DNA of 15,520 nt, taken from Candidatus Hermodarchaeota archaeon. GTDB lineage: Archaea > Asgardarchaeota > Thorarchaeia > Thorarchaeales > Thorarchaeaceae. The notes below the pieces were generated by a model. That model was not told the origin of the DNA, did no database searches, and was given only the letters and a program-made list of their open reading frames with translations. Shown piece after piece: positions 6,341 to 14,228 of the stretch. Position numbers and translations under genes: made by a program. Positions within the stretch are counted from its first letter, which is position 1; every line of letters starts with the position of its first letter. The stretch covers positions 1 through 15,520 of the forward strand of contig JBHLLF010000053.1 in assembly GCA_048885865.1 (NCBI GenBank). Reading direction: 5' to 3'.

Positions 6341-6425
6341 CTTGATTCACCTCATGTCTATTGCATGGGAGAATCATACTAAGAAAAGACCGAGTATTAT
6401 GACGCCTCGTCTTTGGTGAACAACA

Positions 6426-6432
6426 TTTATAC
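6426..6432 (+). promoter_or_regulatory. Putative TATA box for the helicase gene
   Basis: TTTATAC about 20-30 nt before the GTG 6452/ATG 6461 starts, consistent with a nearly leaderless transcript. Confidence 0.45.
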
Positions 6433-6451
6433 TCCCTCTCGGCATCAATGA

Positions 6452-9142
6452 GTGATAGCGATGTCCAAACAGAGTCTGGATGATGAGCGAGTAGCAAAGC
6501 TACAAGAACAGCTCAAAGCTCTAGGCAACAGATACGCAGTAGAGATACTGCAGGTCTTGAGTCCTAAGACGGGCGATATAATTCCAAGTCTCGGATGGGA
6601 TGGCATAGTCGACGGCGTACTAGAACTGAAGGGATTTCACAAGCCAGATCCGAGCCCAGCTGGCGGCAAGTCTCAGGAGGAGGCAGATTATCAAGAGAAA
6701 CGTCAGCGATTTGTGTCTGGCGGAACATTGTATGAAACAATGAATAAGCTCGCCAAAGTTGGCTTTGTCAATACTATTGGTGAAAGAGGAAGGAAGAATA
6801 GAAGATTCACAATCACTCATGAAGGACGCCTCGCACTCTCTGCAATCGCCGGAATGCGGGGTCCAACGGCTATTGATACAGAGATCCAGAAGGCCGCGAA
6901 AGTCCTCCTGAAACATAAGAACTTCACAAGACTGTTACCTGCACAAGAGAAGTTTCTGGAAGAGGTTGGTGCTGTTGATAGCAACCTCGTGATTCAGATG
7001 CCTCCAGGTTCTGGGAAGACCTTCCTCGCAATGATTGCCATTCTGATCAGGCTTCAAAGAGGAGTGAAATGTCTATATCTGACTCCATACACTTCATTGA
7101 ACACTCAGGTCATCGATGAATATCGAGAGTTGTTTGAGAACCTTGGATACTCTGTTGTGAGGCACGACGGGTCTCATAGAGCAACAGATTCGGATCTGCT
7201 AAACGCCGGGCTAATTGTGTCAGTCCTTGAATCATCCCTCTCTGCTGTTTTGGAGGGGAAATCCTGGACTGATGAAATTGGACTCGCAGTGATTGATGAG
7301 CTTACTGAACTTGACTCTGCAGTAATCAGAAAGGAGCCACAGAGTCTCGGAATGGATAGAAGCACCAAGCTGGACTGTCTAATCACTCAACTGAAAGACA
7401 GCACTCAGCTTATCACATTGTCCTCCCGGTTTGGCAGAACTAGTGAGATTGCAGACTGGCTTGACGCCACTGTATTTAGGCCAAATGTGCGTCTGACCCC
7501 AGATGAGTTCATCGTTAGTGAAGAGGAAGAAGGTATGGTCATCGAGAGCAGCGATGGAACTCAGCGCAGCACCTTCAAGACGAATTCACCTATCGATGCA
7601 ATAATCGAACATATGGAAGATTACCAAGAGCGGGCGGTGCTCATTGTTGTGGGAACGCGTGACTCAGCCGAGGGAATAGCAGAATACATGGCAAAAGTAC
7701 ATCCTAGGCCAATTTCAGAGTCCACTATCTCTCAGATACTTGGACCAGAGAAAGACTTGCCAGTTAGCTTAAGACTGATGATGACTCTTGCCCATGGCGT
7801 TGCATTTCACCATGCAGGATTGGATGTTGATGTGCGTGAGCGATTGGAAGGGAGTATCAAGAATGGAACGGTCAAGACAGTTGTATCCACTACAGGCATC
7901 ACGTCAGGAATCAGCTTCCCATTTGATTGTGTCATGATAGCCTTCGGAACAGGGATGTACTTCTTGGTTTCCAGATCACGATACCTTCAGATCGCAGGGA
8001 GAATCGGCGAATATTACCTCTCAAAGCACGGTGGAAGAGTCTATTTGATGTATGATGGGCCCACCATGCAGTTCAGAGATGTCGAAACACTCAAGGAAAC
8101 GCTTCTACATCGACCCATCGACCCACTTCGTCCAGGCGAGCTTCATCCAGCACTTATTGCGAGCCTGATGATGAGGGAGGCTGTCAAAGGGAGAGCATTC
8201 ACTCGCAAAGATGCCCTCTCCAGATTCCTCAAGTTTGCTGAAGCAACCTTCAGAGGGGACGTAGATGAAGGCTATGCAGAGAATATGACAGAGATGTTTC
8301 TGCAGTTGTTCGATTGGCTGGTTAAGCACGGGGTTCTTGACGCTAAAGATGGCAAATTCAGGATAAGCAAGGAAGCAAAAGCCGCAGTTGGTTCCGGGCT
8401 GAACATTCTCGAATTTCTGGCAGTAAGAGAAACTCTGAAGGACATGCAACCTGACACGGACCAATCTGAGTTTATTGAGATGCTTCTGCGATTCAGTCTG
8501 CCTCAGGGAATCCGTCCTAGAGCCCTGATTCCAACAGATATAGAACTCAAGTTGGCTGAACTAGATCCACCAGATGAGAGGTATGTCAGGTTCAAACAGC
8601 GTCGAGATGATTACAAGAAAGCGGTTCTGCATAGATGGCTTGATGAAATGAGTGTAGAGGACGCAATTGCACTCACCGAGGCGGCTGCAAAGGATGCTTC
8701 GGATGGCAGGCAGTCCATTGGAAGCGATATCGGCGAAGGAGACCTTGAAGCTCTTGTGAACATCTCAAGCAATATCTCATGGAGTATCAGCGAGTTCTTG
8801 CACGCTACGAGGAGAAAGAAGCTGGCTCGACGGTTCGAACTCCTTAGTAATCAACTCAGGTACGGAGTAAGACAGGACCTTGCTGGTTCAGACATCTTCC
8901 ACCTGTTGGTATCCATAGACGACTCCTTTGACAGACATCTATCCAGAACTGAAATCAGGACTCTGTTCGATTGCAGCTATAAATCAATCAATGATATAGT
9001 GAGAAAAGATATTGATGCGAAAAAGCCAGGATTCGCCAGAGACCGGTTTGCCAAGAACTGTGGGTTGGACCCTGATTTAGCCAAGATGGTCTACAAGTCA
9101 GCTCTAGAGCATCTCAAAGCGCGATTTGATGACGACGACTAG
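6452..9142 (+). CDS. N-terminal winged-HTH fused to a divergent Ski2/Hel308-like SF2 helicase
   Basis: Q motif (FTRLLPAQ), Walker A MPPGSGKT, Walker B IDELT, GVAFHHAGL, motif V STTGITSGISFP, motif VI LQIAGRIG. N-terminal LKALGN...ILQVL...GGTLYETMNKLAKVGFV...RFTITHEG resembles ArsR/PadR. The real start may be ATG 6461. Confidence 0.85.
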   Translation: MIAMSKQSLDDERVAKLQEQLKALGNRYAVEILQVLSPKTGDIIPSLGWDGIVDGVLELKGFHKPDPSPAGGKSQEEADYQEKRQRFVSGGTLYETMNKLAKVGFVNTIGERGRKNRRFTITHEGRLALSAIAGMRGPTAIDTEIQKAAKVLLKHKNFTRLLPAQEKFLEEVGAVDSNLVIQMPPGSGKTFLAMIAILIRLQRGVKCLYLTPYTSLNTQVIDEYRELFENLGYSVVRHDGSHRATDSDLLNAGLIVSVLESSLSAVLEGKSWTDEIGLAVIDELTELDSAVIRKEPQSLGMDRSTKLDCLITQLKDSTQLITLSSRFGRTSEIADWLDATVFRPNVRLTPDEFIVSEEEEGMVIESSDGTQRSTFKTNSPIDAIIEHMEDYQERAVLIVVGTRDSAEGIAEYMAKVHPRPISESTISQILGPEKDLPVSLRLMMTLAHGVAFHHAGLDVDVRERLEGSIKNGTVKTVVSTTGITSGISFPFDCVMIAFGTGMYFLVSRSRYLQIAGRIGEYYLSKHGGRVYLMYDGPTMQFRDVETLKETLLHRPIDPLRPGELHPALIASLMMREAVKGRAFTRKDALSRFLKFAEATFRGDVDEGYAENMTEMFLQLFDWLVKHGVLDAKDGKFRISKEAKAAVGSGLNILEFLAVRETLKDMQPDTDQSEFIEMLLRFSLPQGIRPRALIPTDIELKLAELDPPDERYVRFKQRRDDYKKAVLHRWLDEMSVEDAIALTEAAAKDASDGRQSIGSDIGEGDLEALVNISSNISWSISEFLHATRRKKLARRFELLSNQLRYGVRQDLAGSDIFHLLVSIDDSFDRHLSRTEIRTLFDCSYKSINDIVRKDIDAKKPGFARDRFAKNCGLDPDLAKMVYKSALEHLKARFDDDD

Positions 9143-9645
9143 CCTTTGCCGAAATCCCACAACGCATCATTCACATGATGCTTTGACATGATCACTTTTC
9201 CCTCAGATGCCGCTCTCAACTCCTCTGTGGACATCTTTGATATTCCAACAGCCAGAGGTTTGCCATGTCGTTCGTCAACTATCGCGACCACTGATCCTGA
9301 TGCAATTCCATCGTCTATCTTTGTGATTCCTGGACGCATAATGTCTGCGCCATTGACAACGAATCTAACCGCACCCATGTCGACTGTGACTGTGGGAATC
9401 GTGATTACACCTCGCAGTAATGCATGGAGTGTAGGGAGAAGTTTACCGTCGTCCTCGAAGAAGATTATCTCACCTTCATAGAGAATGATATGGTCCCCTG
9501 TGTCGAGGATTCCTTCCTCAAGCTTCACCTTGGGATCAAGACTTGCTGGCTGCGCACCCAATTCCTTCTCTATGCGGTCCATGTACTCTCGCTGAGCACG
9601 CTTCTTCAGCAAATGGCGTTTCTTTATGCGTTCTATCTTCGGCAT
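9139..9645 (-). CDS. PUA-domain RNA-binding protein (DUF1947 + PUA; MCT-1/Tma20-like)
   Basis: KRHLLKK, LLPTL, VTVDMGAVRFVVNGADIMRPGI, DERHGKPLAVG, GKVI...HHVNDALW. Start is either ATG 9645 (MPKIE, preferred) or 9663. The stop overlaps the helicase stop (CTAG). Confidence 0.93.
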   Translation of the reverse strand: MPKIERIKKRHLLKKRAQREYMDRIEKELGAQPASLDPKVKLEEGILDTGDHIILYEGEIIFFEDDGKLLPTLHALLRGVITIPTVTVDMGAVRFVVNGADIMRPGITKIDDGIASGSVVAIVDERHGKPLAVGISKMSTEELRAASEGKVIMSKHHVNDALWDFGKG

Positions 9646-9728
9646 TTTGCTGATGAAGACCATTAGTCCTTTTCAAGGCTGCGAATTGACTTCTGGAAGG
9701 CGAAAAAACGCAAAGCTCCATCGTCATG

Positions 9729-10508: not shown

Positions 10509-12338
10509 TTGAGAAGGTTCGCGTGGATTGGACTAGTCCTTCTATTCTCTATGATAATACACTGTACGGTATCTTCGGAGATTCCCTCTACAAGAGAGTT
10601 TCTTCAGATGACGGATGAGAGTGGTGGAGTTCAGAGTTCATATGCAAATAGAGGACCAATCGCCATCCTTAGTGACGCAGACTTCAGTAGTTATGGATTC
10701 CCCGGAACGGGAGATAAGAGCACACCATATAGAATTGAGGGCTACAATATCACTGACAGCAACTTCGAATTGATAGTAATTGAGAATACTGAAGCGTTCT
10801 TTGTAATCCAGAACAACTACCTTGATAGTATAACCTCATCATTGGATGCAATCTATATACGAAACGCGAAGAATGGGCAGGTGTACAACAATACTGTGGT
10901 CAATAACAGACATGGGATATTCTTGGACAAAGGTTGTCAGAGTATAAACATCACACTCAACGAGGTCTGCAATACATCTCAGAGTGGAATCAGAATTAAC
11001 GGTTCAACAGATGTAAGAATTCGGAATAACGAGGTGTATCAAAACACCTACAATGGCATCTGGGCCAATTATTCGACACATCTCGAGATTTGGAATAATA
11101 CAGTCTATAATGATGAATTGGGTATCTGGCTCAGGAACACAAATAGCTGTCAGGTCTTCGAGAATTTGCTGTTTGGGAATGACAATGCGATGTGGATATC
11201 CAATCAGTCCACCTCGAATAACATCGCCTTCAATCGAGTCTTTGATCCAGCTGACCTGAATCCAAATACATGTGGTATACATCTTTCTCATAATGCAAGT
11301 GGGAACAACATTCTCATCAACACTGTCGAAAACTCTACAGAACATGCGTTCTACGTGGAAACATCATCAGGCAATAACACGATAAAGTGGAACGCGTTCA
11401 AAGGCAACAATGTTGGCGGGACTTCTCAAGCGCTTGATGACGCCTCTGTGAATGTTCAGTACAATTATTGGAGTGATTGGACAACTCCTGATGCAAATTC
11501 TGACCAGATTGTGGACATTCCATATGCGCTTGAAGGAGCTGCAATGAATGAGGACCCATTTCCATTGACCAAGCCTGCAAACGCATCCGTGGTCCACTTT
11601 CTCACACCAATTAGAGTACTATATCCGAATGGTGGAGAGGTGATTACAGACTCTGCCACCATACAGTGGATTCCAAGTTATGATTCAGAGAGTCATGAGG
11701 TCAATTATTCGATCTATGTTTCTAGTAACTCAGGCGTCGATTGGGAAAAGATTGTTGGGAATCTGACTACTACTCAATACGAGTGGAACACGACTGCTGA
11801 ATTGAAGACGACTCATTATCTCATTCGAGTAATTGCTGAATGTTCAGAGGGTCTGAATGTAACAGACGACTCTGATGCGGAATTCTCATTGATACCCCAT
11901 GCTTTATCAGAAGTCATTATCAGGTCGCCAGCTAATTCTGGCCCATTCGATAGGAGCCTCACCATCGAATGGGATGCTGTCGTTGATTCTTGGGGATGGA
12001 TTGTAAGTTATTCTATACAATATTCATCGACTGGAGGCTATGATTGGAATGATCTAGCCTCTGGATTGACTGGTACGAGCTATCAATGGGACATCTCTCA
12101 ACTCGAGGAAGATGACACCTATGTCGTAAAGATCATTGCTTCTGCAGATGGGGGATTATTATCTGAGGCAATCTCAGTCTTATTCTCAATTCAGCATATG
12201 ACGACTACCACTACACCCACGACGCCAACAGTAGGACCAGACTTGACTCCACTCTTGATTGGAGGGGGGATTACAGGCGTTGCGGTAGCGATAGTTGTAG
12301 TGATTATTCTGAAGAAGAAGAGGACAAGCAAGACCTGA
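10509..12338 (+). CDS. Membrane-anchored surface glycoprotein: signal peptide, right-handed beta-helix (NosD/PbH1-like), two Ig/FN3-like domains, Thr-rich linker, C-terminal TM + basic tail
   Basis: TTG start with SD GAGGAGG; hydrophobic N-terminus; GTG-x3-PYRIEGYNI; repeated GI-x-L/I-x-NN-x-V units; NYWSD; YPNGGE; TTTTTPTTPT; GVAVAIVVVIILKKKR. Confidence 0.85.
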   Translation: MRRFAWIGLVLLFSMIIHCTVSSEIPSTREFLQMTDESGGVQSSYANRGPIAILSDADFSSYGFPGTGDKSTPYRIEGYNITDSNFELIVIENTEAFFVIQNNYLDSITSSLDAIYIRNAKNGQVYNNTVVNNRHGIFLDKGCQSINITLNEVCNTSQSGIRINGSTDVRIRNNEVYQNTYNGIWANYSTHLEIWNNTVYNDELGIWLRNTNSCQVFENLLFGNDNAMWISNQSTSNNIAFNRVFDPADLNPNTCGIHLSHNASGNNILINTVENSTEHAFYVETSSGNNTIKWNAFKGNNVGGTSQALDDASVNVQYNYWSDWTTPDANSDQIVDIPYALEGAAMNEDPFPLTKPANASVVHFLTPIRVLYPNGGEVITDSATIQWIPSYDSESHEVNYSIYVSSNSGVDWEKIVGNLTTTQYEWNTTAELKTTHYLIRVIAECSEGLNVTDDSDAEFSLIPHALSEVIIRSPANSGPFDRSLTIEWDAVVDSWGWIVSYSIQYSSTGGYDWNDLASGLTGTSYQWDISQLEEDDTYVVKIIASADGGLLSEAISVLFSIQHMTTTTTPTTPTVGPDLTPLLIGGGITGVAVAIVVVIILKKKRTSKT

Positions 12339-12374
12339 AGAGACGAACGACAAATCAAGGAGAACTGATAATCG

Positions 12375-14228
12375 ATGCGAAGGATAGCAGCCATCCTATT
12401 CTGCCTGACTCTACTCTTTGTGTGTCCACTAACAGCGACATGGTGTTATTTCGACAGCCATAGAAGTAGACAGAGTCAAGAAGTATCAAGAGGCTTCATT
12501 CCAGCCTATGATGAAGCACTTCCTATCCATATTTCCAATGACAGTGATTTCGCAGATCAGGCTTCTGCTAACTCTTGGGATGGCAATGGTTCATTGAGCG
12601 ACCCCTATATAGTCAAGGGATTGAATATCACCACTGCAGGGACCTCCCCAATTCAAATAGGGAACTCAACAGTATTCTTTGAGATTCGGGGATGCCTTCT
12701 AGTTGGGGGCGCAATGGGAATTCTTCTGCAGAATGTGACAAATGCCAAGATCTGGAATAATACAATCCAAGACTCGCAGAGTTCTGGTATACTGGTGACC
12801 GAGTCAGATGATGTTATCGTGGCAAACAACACAATCCAAGACATTAGCGGTCCAGATTCCGCGGGATTGTATTCTCTAGGTTCAGAATATTGTGAATACT
12901 CGAACAACACGATTGATAGTGTGAACGGATGGGGTATTCTTGCAGACTATACGAATAACTGCTCGATCTCTGACAATGTTGTAAGCGATCTCTTGCATGA
13001 TGGTATTCGTCTACGAGACTCCTCTGAGAATAATATAACTCTCAATACAGTCACAAGCGGCATGAGCGGCATCAAGCTTGGAAACTCACATGGATGTAGA
13101 CTGGAAAGGAATCTCGTAGGCTTTAGTCTATCAGATGGCATCTCGATTGAAGCATCGGCGAATTGTGTAATCAAAGGCAATGTTGTGCACGAGAGTGGTT
13201 CTTATTCTCTTGATTTGTCTGGAGATTCTTCAGACATCATTTCAAACACTTTCTACAGGAGTCAGATGCAGGGACTTCGCATTCAATCAGATAACAGCTA
13301 TGTCACGCAGAACAATCTAATAGAGAACAATCTTGGATTTGTGGAAGCTGCTACCTATCTAGATATTTCCGGTTCTAATAACGACATCATTGGGAATTAT
13401 TATGATGCATTGACTTGGCCAGATGATGATGAGAATGATATTGTTGACCACGCGTATCCATTTGGTGGGGGACAGAGCGATTCTGAACCGCATGTCAGGG
13501 TGTTCCTGACAGACTTGATGCATATCCTCACAAAGCCAAGATTGGTCTATCCGAACGAAACGATGGATGGAGAAAGATTCTGGGGGCAGATTCAGATTAC
13601 TTGGAGTGTTTCTAGCGACACATTTGGACACGATGCTACCTACAATGTATCAGCTTCGGCAGATGGAGGATCTTCGTGGATTGAACTTGTTCACGGGCTG
13701 ATTGATACAAATCTGAACTGGAATTCATCAGATTTCTTGGAGAATACTGAATGCAGAATCAGAATTGCTGCACAATGTACTGATGGACTGATTTCAGAGT
13801 ACACGACCAATGCGATGTATGAAGTCAAAAGCCACACCCTGTCAGCCCCGACAGTCCTCACTCCAAATGGTGGTGAAACAATTGGTGGAGATTATGAGAT
13901 CACATGGACTGACTCTGTTGAGTCCTGGGGTCTTATTGTTTCATATGATGTCTTCTATTCCACAGATGCTGGAGAAACATGGAATGTGATAATCAGTACC
14001 TATGATAGCACTTCAATTGCATGGGATGTCAGGGGATTACCAGAAACAGATCAGTATCTCATACGTGTTGTTGCTAGAGGGTCCTCCGGTCTCACCGCAG
14101 AGGATGTGTCTGATTCAGTCTTTTCGGTAAGATGGTCGAGCAACATGATAATCATTGGGTTGGTCGGCGGTGGAGCGATACTGATTGTCATTGCTGTCTA
14201 TGCGCTGCGGCGACGAGGAACTATCTGA
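12375..14228 (+). CDS. Paralogous beta-helix + two Ig/FN3-like domain surface glycoprotein
   Basis: Same architecture: signal peptide, WDGNGS-x2-PYIV-x-GLNI, beta-helix repeats, GNYYD, TPNGGE, C-terminal TM ending LRRRGTI. Confidence 0.85.
   Translation: MRRIAAILFCLTLLFVCPLTATWCYFDSHRSRQSQEVSRGFIPAYDEALPIHISNDSDFADQASANSWDGNGSLSDPYIVKGLNITTAGTSPIQIGNSTVFFEIRGCLLVGGAMGILLQNVTNAKIWNNTIQDSQSSGILVTESDDVIVANNTIQDISGPDSAGLYSLGSEYCEYSNNTIDSVNGWGILADYTNNCSISDNVVSDLLHDGIRLRDSSENNITLNTVTSGMSGIKLGNSHGCRLERNLVGFSLSDGISIEASANCVIKGNVVHESGSYSLDLSGDSSDIISNTFYRSQMQGLRIQSDNSYVTQNNLIENNLGFVEAATYLDISGSNNDIIGNYYDALTWPDDDENDIVDHAYPFGGGQSDSEPHVRVFLTDLMHILTKPRLVYPNETMDGERFWGQIQITWSVSSDTFGHDATYNVSASADGGSSWIELVHGLIDTNLNWNSSDFLENTECRIRIAAQCTDGLISEYTTNAMYEVKSHTLSAPTVLTPNGGETIGGDYEITWTDSVESWGLIVSYDVFYSTDAGETWNVIISTYDSTSIAWDVRGLPETDQYLIRVVARGSSGLTAEDVSDSVFSVRWSSNMIIIGLVGGGAILIVIAVYALRRRGTI

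What the first reader, a model, noticed from the sequence alone, without database searches (positions are those of the whole stretch)
6452..9142. Winged-HTH regulator domain fused to a Ski2/Hel308-like helicase
Seen: about 130 N-terminal residues (nt ~6500-6850) carry an ArsR/PadR-like pattern (LKALGN-x5-IL-x2-L; S-x-GTLY-x-T-x2-KL-x3-GFV; wing ending RFTIT-x-EG). A charged ~25-residue insertion lies before the recognition helix. A full Ski2-like body follows, with a long helical C-terminal region (LRYGV..., R...LF..., resembling Hel308 domains 4/5). Known: archaeal Hel308/Hjm begins at the Q motif with no regulator-type wHTH in front, and ASH-Ski2 has an N-terminal Cys cluster, which is absent here. 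Inference: a site-targeted or self-regulating helicase-like protein, possibly an ATP/nucleic-acid-sensing transcription factor. This is the best candidate for an undescribed system in the window.
Basis: partly seen in the sequence, partly recalled or inferred. Interest (0 to 1): 0.75.

Follow-up and report, generated by a model that had tools for sequence, protein, structure and literature searches.

The report
Helicase-derived DNA-repair gene switch
One family of Asgard archaea has fused a gene-regulator DNA-binding domain to a DNA-repair helicase that has lost its motor residues, and a matching palindrome in front of its own gene and of the core repair genes suggests that the hybrid senses damaged DNA and switches repair on, a kind of damage regulator I found described nowhere.

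Summary
Observation confirmed. The 893-896 aa protein is a PadR/ArsR-type winged helix (predicted to dimerise) joined to a complete five-domain Hel308 fold. It is confined to one Thorarchaeia family (75 of 85 genomes), syntenic, under purifying selection, and extra to a canonical Hel308. A palindrome, CTC-N9-GAG, covers its own predicted transcription start. The same box lies just upstream of the TATA boxes of RPA, the herA-mre11-rad50 operon and radA (half-site) in 61 of 65 carrier promoters, and more patchily at MCM-hel308, nre, alkZ and FEN1. It is absent from 49 other Asgard and 144 housekeeping promoters. Best reading (0.55): an ssDNA/ATP-sensing activator of a DNA-repair regulon that represses its own gene. 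Binding is inferred, not shown, and recent gene-loss strains keep 9 of 10 boxes. The scan noted this family and a repair motif before on other DNA (e1-5555212); I tested it independently here.

The parts
6452..9142 (+). wHTH-pseudo-Hel308 fusion gene (896 codons from GTG 6452; probable start ATG 6461, 893 aa)
   Evidence: dN/dS 0.04-0.2 in nearly all domain comparisons
6467..6856 (+). N-terminal PadR/ArsR-type winged helix (residues ~6-135); helices 1 and 5 form the predicted dimer interface
6629..6718 (+). Family-specific insertion (residues ~60-89: charged loop plus extra helix) before the recognition helix
6719..6814 (+). Recognition helix and wing (residues 90-121); invariant G90, G91, T92, Y94, E95, M97, K99 and wing R117, F119
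   Evidence: 85 sequences; its numbering plus 3
6851..6874 (+). Low-confidence, probably flexible linker between wHTH and helicase body (residues ~134-141)
   Evidence: pLDDT under 50 in the full model
6881..7486 (+). RecA1 domain: Q165, Walker A K189/T190 and Walker B D282/E283 invariant; motif Ia Arg, Ib Thr and motif II His replaced; motif III reads SSR
   Evidence: 141 family vs 98 canonical Hel308
7295..7306 (+). Motif II DELT (His absent in 141 of 141)
7421..7429 (+). Motif III SSR (Thr to Arg326 in 141 of 141)
7487..8131 (+). RecA2 domain: DNA-contact residues R403, H453, H454, T480 kept; strand-separating beta-hairpin about 5 residues shorter and not formed in the model
7988..8011 (+). 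Motif VI Q513-R517-E520: arginine finger replaced by Glu in 141 of 141
   Evidence: role of this Arg from 10.1101/758169
8132..9139 (+). Hel308 domains 3-5 (internal winged helix, ratchet, helix-loop-helix); domain-5 arginines R832 (135 of 141) and R836 (141 of 141) kept
6426..6432 (+). Predicted TATA box of the fusion gene
   Evidence: conserved across carriers; TSS not mapped
6437..6453 (.). 17-bp palindromic box (core CTC-N9-GAG) over the gene's predicted transcription start and ribosome-binding site; proposed autoregulatory site, the same box as in repair promoters
6383..6399 (-). Conserved sepF promoter element, about 59 nt before the sepF start; independent of the fusion gene
   Evidence: kept in genomes that lack the gene; unique in the genome
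5939..6340 (-). sepF, divergent neighbour; adjacent to the PUA gene in the outgroup and in gene-loss strains
9139..9663 (-). PUA-domain gene, convergent neighbour (4-nt overlap)

Best explanation
The protein is a one-component regulator of a DNA repair/replication regulon in Thorarchaeaceae. Step 1 (modelled): two N-terminal winged helices dimerise. Step 2 (inferred from co-distribution and promoter geometry): the dimer binds CTC-N9-GAG. Step 3 (inferred by analogy with TFB-RF1): at target promoters the box ends 5-8 nt before the TATA box, next to a non-consensus BRE, so the bound dimer recruits TFB and raises transcription of RPA, herA-mre11-rad50, radA, MCM-hel308, nre, alkZ and FEN1. At its own promoter the box covers the start site, so it represses itself. 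Step 4 (sequence shown, activity inferred): the Hel308 body binds ATP but lacks the arginine finger and the wedge, so it neither translocates nor unwinds. Step 5 (inferred): the body clamps single-stranded or forked DNA through the retained RecA2 and domain-5 contacts, and this ligand switches promoter binding or activation on after damage. Rough odds per step: reads the box 0.7; activator rather than repressor 0.7; ssDNA or fork as the signal 0.65; no productive ATPase 0.75.
For: wHTH fold with invariant recognition helix and wing. Homodimer prediction: score 0.42 vs best control 0.00, runs agree in at least 93% of contacts, pLDDT at least 82; the mark was reached by 20 of 30 solved homodimers and 1 of 23 single chains, and the pass may reflect likeness to solved ArsR/PadR dimers. 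Motif table and the arginine-finger role. The matrix was trained only on the gene's own upstream regions, yet in G000 it picked out intergenic sites before a uvrA-like gene, the herA operon, alkZ, MCM, RPA/DP2, nre and ogt; the exact-core scan added FEN1. With a 7-nt spacer, 17 intergenic sites have a start 45-85 nt downstream, against 3-6 for other spacers. A box-plus-TATA scan of about 3,300 genes gave 11 hits: 6 repair/replication operons, a weak DinB-family match and this locus; three of these promoter types were in that scan's training set. Orthologous carrier promoters outside genus g28: RPA 21/22, herA operon 19/22, radA 21/21 (one search corrected for G018); nre 9/25, alkZ 3-4 of 10. 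None in 49 radA/RPA promoters of other Asgard, 2 of the sister-family outgroup or 144 housekeeping promoters. Older gene-loss genomes keep 1 of 9 boxes. Gene and box have the same phylum-level range. The geometry matches TFB-RF1, a palindrome just upstream of a weak BRE (PMC5937170); the herA-operon and radA BREs are A-poor.
Against: No binding, expression or biochemical data. Four g3 genomes that deleted the gene still have 9 of 10 boxes. At 90-95% nucleotide identity to carriers this fits a recent loss but gives no support. Genus g28 (one carrier, one of unknown status) keeps only 2 of 6 boxes, so erosion there is not tied strictly to gene loss. The own-promoter box is missing in 16 of 41 carriers (g5, g6, g28, g29). 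Any other Thorarchaeaceae-specific regulator would show the same phylum-level pattern. The radA site is a half-site. The right half-site overlaps the BRE region, so part of its conservation may come from TFB. Genomes are related, so the counts are not independent.
Confidence: 0.55

Rival explanations
1. Same protein and same box, but a LexA/CapW-type repressor. The dimer sits over the BRE in undamaged cells and ssDNA binding to the Hel308 body releases it, inducing targets and its own gene together.
For: The box abuts or overlaps the BRE and covers its own start site. PadR and ArsR proteins are mostly repressors (own knowledge). CapW is released from DNA by ssDNA (PMC11662680). Clean loss of the gene would be tolerated.
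Against: The box-to-TATA distance is held at 5-8 nt across RPA, herA, radA, MCM and nre promoters. In G342 and G392, where the upstream radA half-site is lost, a full box appears before a second TATA at the same distance. Fixed spacing and weak BREs are typical of activators.
Confidence: 0.15
2. The box is read by a different Thorarchaeaceae regulator (or an alternative TFB). This protein is a non-catalytic DNA-structure binder (annealer, fork protector or scaffold) and only a member of the regulon; its wHTH binds DNA without sequence specificity or binds a partner.
For: Boxes persist in 9 of 10 promoters of g3 deletion strains and at the G348 herA promoter. Read on the other strand, the own-promoter box has activator geometry toward sepF. 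Hel308 proteins have annealing activity (PMC13623763).
Against: The recognition helix and wing are invariant, with dN/dS about 0-0.1, and PadR-like. Among G000's TATA-then-box promoters, the box best overlaps the start site here. No other candidate regulator with the box surfaced in the scans, though this was not an exhaustive search.
Confidence: 0.18
3. A rewired but active ATPase/translocase: the invariant Arg326 of motif III replaces the lost arginine finger, and the wHTH targets the motor to promoters or stalled complexes.
For: Q motif, Walker A, the Walker B DE, Q513 and R517 are invariant. The gain of Arg326 is as fixed as the loss of the finger.
Against: Both RecA1 DNA-backbone contacts (motifs Ia, Ib), the DExH His and the beta-hairpin wedge are lost, so coupling and unwinding are unlikely even if slow hydrolysis remains. 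A Glu at the finger position is charge-reversed.
Confidence: 0.07
4. A regulator of the divergent cell-division gene sepF, or an RNA-metabolism factor acting with its neighbours aCPSF1, PUA and Lsm.
For: Invariant synteny. The box also lies upstream of a TATA-like sequence facing sepF.
Against: The PUA-sepF order is ancestral and the gene sits in it antisense. The sepF promoter element survives loss of the gene. The regulon points to DNA repair.
Confidence: 0.05

Closest known systems
Archaeal Hel308/Hjm (PDB 2va8, 2p6r, 2zj8; NCBIfam NF040935, PRK02362)
   Same: Five-domain fold over the whole body; Q motif, Walker A/B, RecA2 DNA contacts and domain-5 arginines kept.
   Different: Extra N-terminal regulator wHTH; DExH His, SAT Thr, arginine finger, motif Ia/Ib contacts and beta-hairpin lost; 115-137 bits against cut-offs of 887-1216; a canonical copy coexists in the genome; separate clade on a very long stem, exact sister unresolved.
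Brr2 C-terminal cassette (Ski2-like pseudo-helicase)
   Same: Ski2-like cassette that binds nucleotide but is enzymatically inactive and acts as a regulator (PMC8220420); altered motif III.
   Different: An intramolecular modulator of a spliceosomal helicase; no DNA-binding regulator domain; here the dead cassette stands alone.
WYL-domain DNA-damage regulators PafBC, DriD and CapW
   Same: Proposed logic: a wHTH plus a domain that senses ssDNA, controlling repair genes without RecA/LexA (PMC11804915, PMC12340889, PMC11662680).
   Different: Bacterial; the sensor is a WYL domain, not an SF2 helicase fold; they act on bacterial RNA polymerase, not TBP/TFB. No WYL match here.
Orc1-2 of Sulfolobales (archaeal DNA-damage-response regulator)
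   Same: A DNA-metabolism ATPase paralogue with a winged helix turned into a damage-response transcription regulator (PMC6061795).
   Different: AAA+ initiator fold with its native wHTH and a hexamer motif; here an SF2 body with an acquired PadR-like wHTH and a 17-bp palindrome.
TFB-RF1 (PF1088) and PadR/ArsR regulators (RosR, SmtB, CzrA)
   Same: wHTH fold and dimer mode; palindrome just upstream of a weak BRE-TATA (PMC5937170).
   Different: Small stand-alone proteins; the domain here has a ~30-residue insertion, scores below the PadR cut-off and is fused to a 750-residue sensor.
ASH-Ski2/Eta
   Same: Archaeal Ski2-like protein with an N-terminal accessory domain.
   Different: Its N-domain is a four-Cys zinc finger (PMC10946056), absent here; the genome has a separate probable ASH-Ski2 (C99).

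Membership tests
Hel308/Hjm | Five-domain architecture (RecA1, RecA2, WH, ratchet, HLH) | tested here: met
   Foldseek TM 0.79-0.82 over Hel308 chains
Hel308/Hjm | DExH motif II | tested here: not met
   His in 0 of 141 vs 98 of 98 canonical
Hel308/Hjm | Motif III SAT and motif VI with both arginines | tested here: not met
   Arg326 and Glu520 in 141 of 141
Hel308/Hjm | Curated family score (NF040935, PRK02362, PRK00254) | tested here: not met
   115-137 bits vs 887-1216
Hel308/Hjm | Orthology: groups with the lineage's Hel308 and is its only copy | tested here: not met
   Canonical copy on C12 groups with other Hel308; the family is a separate clade with unresolved attachment
Hel308/Hjm | 3'-5' ATP-dependent unwinding | not testable with these tools
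   needs biochemistry
ASH-Ski2/Eta | N-terminal four-Cys zinc finger and DUF5814 C-terminus | tested here: not met
   No Cys in the first 200 residues and no DUF5814 hit; a DUF5814 gene lies on C99
PadR/ArsR wHTH regulators | Winged-helix fold with recognition helix and wing | tested here: met
PadR/ArsR wHTH regulators | Pfam PadR gathering score | tested here: not met
   21 bits vs 27, partial match only
PadR/ArsR wHTH regulators | Homodimer | tested here: inconclusive
   Prediction at the mark, 0.42 vs control 0.00; may reflect likeness to solved dimers
PadR/ArsR wHTH regulators | Sequence-specific binding to a palindromic operator | tested here: inconclusive
   Candidate operator found by comparative genomics; binding not testable here
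WYL ssDNA-sensing regulators (PafBC/DriD/CapW) | WYL (and WCX) domain | tested here: not met
   No WYL match; body is an SF2 fold
WYL ssDNA-sensing regulators (PafBC/DriD/CapW) | ssDNA switches promoter binding or activation | not testable with these tools
   needs purified protein
Orc1-2-type damage regulator | AAA+ Orc1/Cdc6 fold | tested here: not met

The most novel reading that the evidence does not exclude
This is an SOS-like, one-component DNA-damage regulator of Asgard archaea in which a catalytically dead SF2 helicase acts as the ssDNA/fork sensor of a transcription activator controlling radA, RPA and the herA-mre11-rad50 operon. It would be a third chemistry for damage sensing beside RecA/LexA and WYL, and the first archaeal regulon I could find that is centred on core recombination genes.
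Probability: 0.45. Interest if true: 0.88.

Novelty: new variant of a known kind. Interest (0 to 1): 0.72.

Why it matters
Archaea lack LexA, and the first damage-response network described in archaea was the Orc1-2 system of Sulfolobales (PMC6061795). A palindrome fixed in front of radA, RPA and herA-mre11-rad50 across an Asgard family, together with a candidate reader, makes the question of an archaeal SOS-like regulon testable in vitro without culturing the organism. It would also show a repair helicase being reused as the sensor of a transcription factor. My full-text searches and the 2024 survey of archaeal Ski2-like proteins, which included 27 Thorarchaeota genomes (PMC10946056), do not describe this architecture or the box; the library is incomplete.

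Tried and rejected
(1) The most conserved spacer element (6383-6399) as the wHTH site: rejected. It is unique in the genome and kept in gene-less genomes. (2) Function from neighbours: rejected, because PUA and sepF are adjacent in the outgroup G025 and in loss strains. (3) A decaying pseudogene: rejected, dN/dS 0.04-0.2 and invariant substitutions. (4) Origin from the lineage's own Hel308 or from the second Asgard Hel308-like clade: not resolved, stem length 3.5 and an open fork. (5) A stand-alone or differently fused N-domain: only fragments and generic PadR proteins among 1.84 billion representatives and in a length-limited search. (6) G358 as a broken gene: the break is a run of N. (7) G018 as a carrier: wrong at first; it is a deletion with 43 codons left, and the tallies were corrected. 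(8) FEN1 and MCM as family-wide targets: box mainly in genus g1 and a few others; the XPF and DP2 associations are probably by-products of neighbouring genes. (9) Genome-wide pattern counts: too weak to separate genomes. (11) An NCBIfam family search in the own genome failed on the accession. (12) Rfam: no match in the window or the C42 region. (13) Foldseek on the N-domain gave no E below 0.001, though all top rows were wHTH.
Full report
Setting. The window is a whole 15.5-kb contig of a 3.6-Mb genome whose relatives are labelled Candidatus Thorarchaeota. The gene at 6452-9142 lies between a divergent sepF and a convergent PUA gene, downstream of psmB-aCPSF1. The probable start is ATG 6461.

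Residues ~6-135 model as a winged helix (pLDDT 88). The best matches among 48,161 solved chains are RosR (Z 10.6), SmtB (10.1), a PadR protein and CzrA (9.8); the Atlas gives PadR and HxlR clusters. Pfam PadR is hit weakly by 82 of 85 members. The nearest stand-alone relatives are ordinary PadR proteins that share only the recognition helix and wing pattern. A loop plus helix of about 30 residues is inserted before the recognition helix. Two copies of the domain are predicted to pair through helices 1 and 5 (score 0.42, best control 0.00; mark reached by 20 of 30 solved homodimers and 1 of 23 single chains; contacts agree at least 93%, pLDDT at least 82; possibly recalled from solved ArsR dimers). 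After a low-confidence linker the rest matches all five Hel308 domains.

It is an extra paralogue with a narrow range. The genome also holds a canonical Hel308 behind MCM, a second Hel308-like gene, a probable ASH-Ski2 and two Lhr-like genes. In 400 Asgard genomes the N-domain profile hits strongly in 75 of 85 members of the window's family and nowhere else. Among 1.84 billion representatives it finds only family members, fragments, one generic PadR and one spurious repeat. Synteny is invariant in the carrier loci examined. In the sister-family genome G025, PUA and sepF are adjacent, so the gene was probably inserted. It has been deleted again in at least seven genomes from three genera, so it is dispensable. 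All domains are under purifying selection. The tree gives a 100-support clade on a very long stem with no resolved sister.

The motor is rewired. Comparing 141 homologues with 98 canonical Hel308: Q165, K189, T190, D282, E283, Q513 and R517 are invariant, so nucleotide binding is probably kept. The DExH His is absent in all. Motif III Thr is Arg in all. The last Arg of motif VI is Glu in all; this residue is the arginine finger, needed for a hydrolysis-competent state in Ski2-like enzymes (10.1101/758169). The DNA contacts of motifs Ia and Ib are lost, and the strand-separating hairpin is about five residues short. The RecA2 contacts (R403, H453, H454, T480) and the domain-5 arginines are kept. 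This reads as a protein that can bind ATP and single-stranded DNA but cannot unwind (inference). The inactive C-terminal cassette of Brr2 is the precedent (PMC8220420).

The promoter evidence. The best-conserved spacer element (6383-6399) belongs to sepF and survives loss of the gene. A second element, the palindrome CTC-N9-GAG at 6437-6453, lies just downstream of the gene's own TATA box in 25 of 41 carrier upstream regions from 11 genera. In G000 the intergenic hits lie about 40-90 nt before the start of a uvrA-like gene, the operon leading into herA-mre11-rad50, alkZ, MCM-hel308, RPA (divergent from PolD DP2), FEN1 and ogt, further upstream of nre, and also before some non-repair genes such as a pirin and an aldo-keto reductase. 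Spacer 7 gives 17 such sites against 3-6 for other spacers. Requiring a TATA 4-10 nt downstream leaves 11 hits among about 3,300 genes, six of them repair or replication operons; RPA, herA and MCM promoter types were in that scan's training set. radA has the left half-site at the same distance from its TATA box.

Across genomes. In carriers outside genus g28 the box is present at RPA in 21 of 22, at the herA operon in 19 of 22 and at radA in 21 of 21 (with G018 removed). Two of those radA promoters have lost the half-site and carry a full box before a second TATA. nre has it in 9 of 25 and alkZ in 3-4 of 10; MCM and FEN1 in a minority. Controls: 0 of 49 radA and RPA promoters from other Asgard, 0 of 2 in G025, 0 of 144 housekeeping promoters. 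The loss test is mixed. G348, G355 and G357 keep 1 of 9 boxes, but the two g28 genomes that have or may have the gene keep only 2 of 6. Four g3 deletion strains, 90-95% identical to carriers, keep 9 of 10. The regulon is therefore well supported; the assignment of this protein as its reader is likely but not shown. These genomes are related, so the counts are not independent trials.

Mechanism. The box ends 5-8 nt before the TATA box, and the BREs of the herA operon and radA are A-poor (14% A). This is the arrangement of TFB-RF1, which recruits TFB to weak BREs (PMC5937170). At the gene's own promoter the box covers the predicted start, the arrangement of autorepression. I therefore favour an activator whose Hel308 body senses ssDNA or stalled forks in an ATP-bound state, working like the WYL regulators PafBC and DriD (PMC11804915, PMC12340889) with a different sensor (0.55). 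Rivals: another protein reads the box (0.18); a CapW/LexA-like repressor (0.15; PMC11662680); a rewired active motor (0.07); a sepF or RNA role (0.05).

Novelty. It fails membership of Hel308, ASH-Ski2, WYL and Orc1-2 families on defining features. It works like an ssDNA-sensing damage regulator and is built from two known folds. The 2024 survey of archaeal Ski2-like proteins recognises Hel308, ASH and Brr2 groups and does not mention this form in its main text (PMC10946056); targeted searches found nothing. The closest archaeal analogue is Orc1-2 (PMC6061795). I file it as a new variant of a known kind, interest 0.72; if the sensing mechanism is confirmed it would be a new class of damage sensor.

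Noticed in passing
L180 (G000 C42:16450-16630, 19020-19205, 21780-21955): Three copies of a ~150-nt non-coding element within 5.5 kb, 88-93% alike, each with the CTC-N9-GAG palindrome followed by a TATA-like sequence; one lies about 216 nt upstream of the uvrB-uvrA-uvrA operon. No Rfam match. It could be a damage-inducible small RNA or a mini mobile element; the palindrome may just be a hairpin.
   Followed up: partly
window 6383-6399 (- strand): sepF promoter element conserved at 15-17 of 17 positions across the family, independent of the fusion gene and partly present in the sister family; candidate site for a cell-division regulator.
   Followed up: partly
L443 (G000 C10:64700-77020): A second, catalytically intact-looking Hel308-like clade (DEIQ motif II) found across several Asgard groups. 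In G000 it lies in a cluster with a RadA-like paralogue, an XPD-like helicase and several unannotated genes; the RadA-like and XPD-like calls are from sequence features and neighbouring hits only.
   Followed up: partly
L068:1144-3288 (G031): A Ski2-like protein from another Asgard family also has motif III SSR but keeps both motif VI arginines; it does not group with the fusion family.
   Followed up: partly
L179:7046-8335 (G000 C29:18042-19349): First gene of the herA-mre11-rad50 operon occupies the NurA position but has no NurA Pfam match even at E 0.05.
   Followed up: partly
L445, L447-L449 (G018, G395, G393, G397): Repeated precise deletions of the fusion gene in genus g3; three genomes share the same junction at a short microhomology, although pairwise identities suggest they are not each other's closest relatives.
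   Followed up: partly
L178 (G000 C62:1-1336) and L181 (C26:8621-10537): A protein with many tandem HTH repeats and a 638-aa protein without Pfam match both have the box 60-80 nt upstream; possible further regulon members.
   Followed up: no
L173 (G000 C1:52769-57661): A 1630-aa tandem UvrA-like protein with the box upstream, in addition to two UvrA genes in the uvrB operon.
   Followed up: no
L260-L262, L275, L279 (MCM of G392, G355, G357, G343, G342): MCM open frames of 1221-2403 aa instead of about 700, probably inteins.
   Followed up: no
window 10509-14228: Two tandem secreted proteins with apparent parallel beta-helix repeats and a C-terminal membrane anchor, lower in GC (42-45%) and variable between close relatives; domain call from sequence appearance only.
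   Followed up: no
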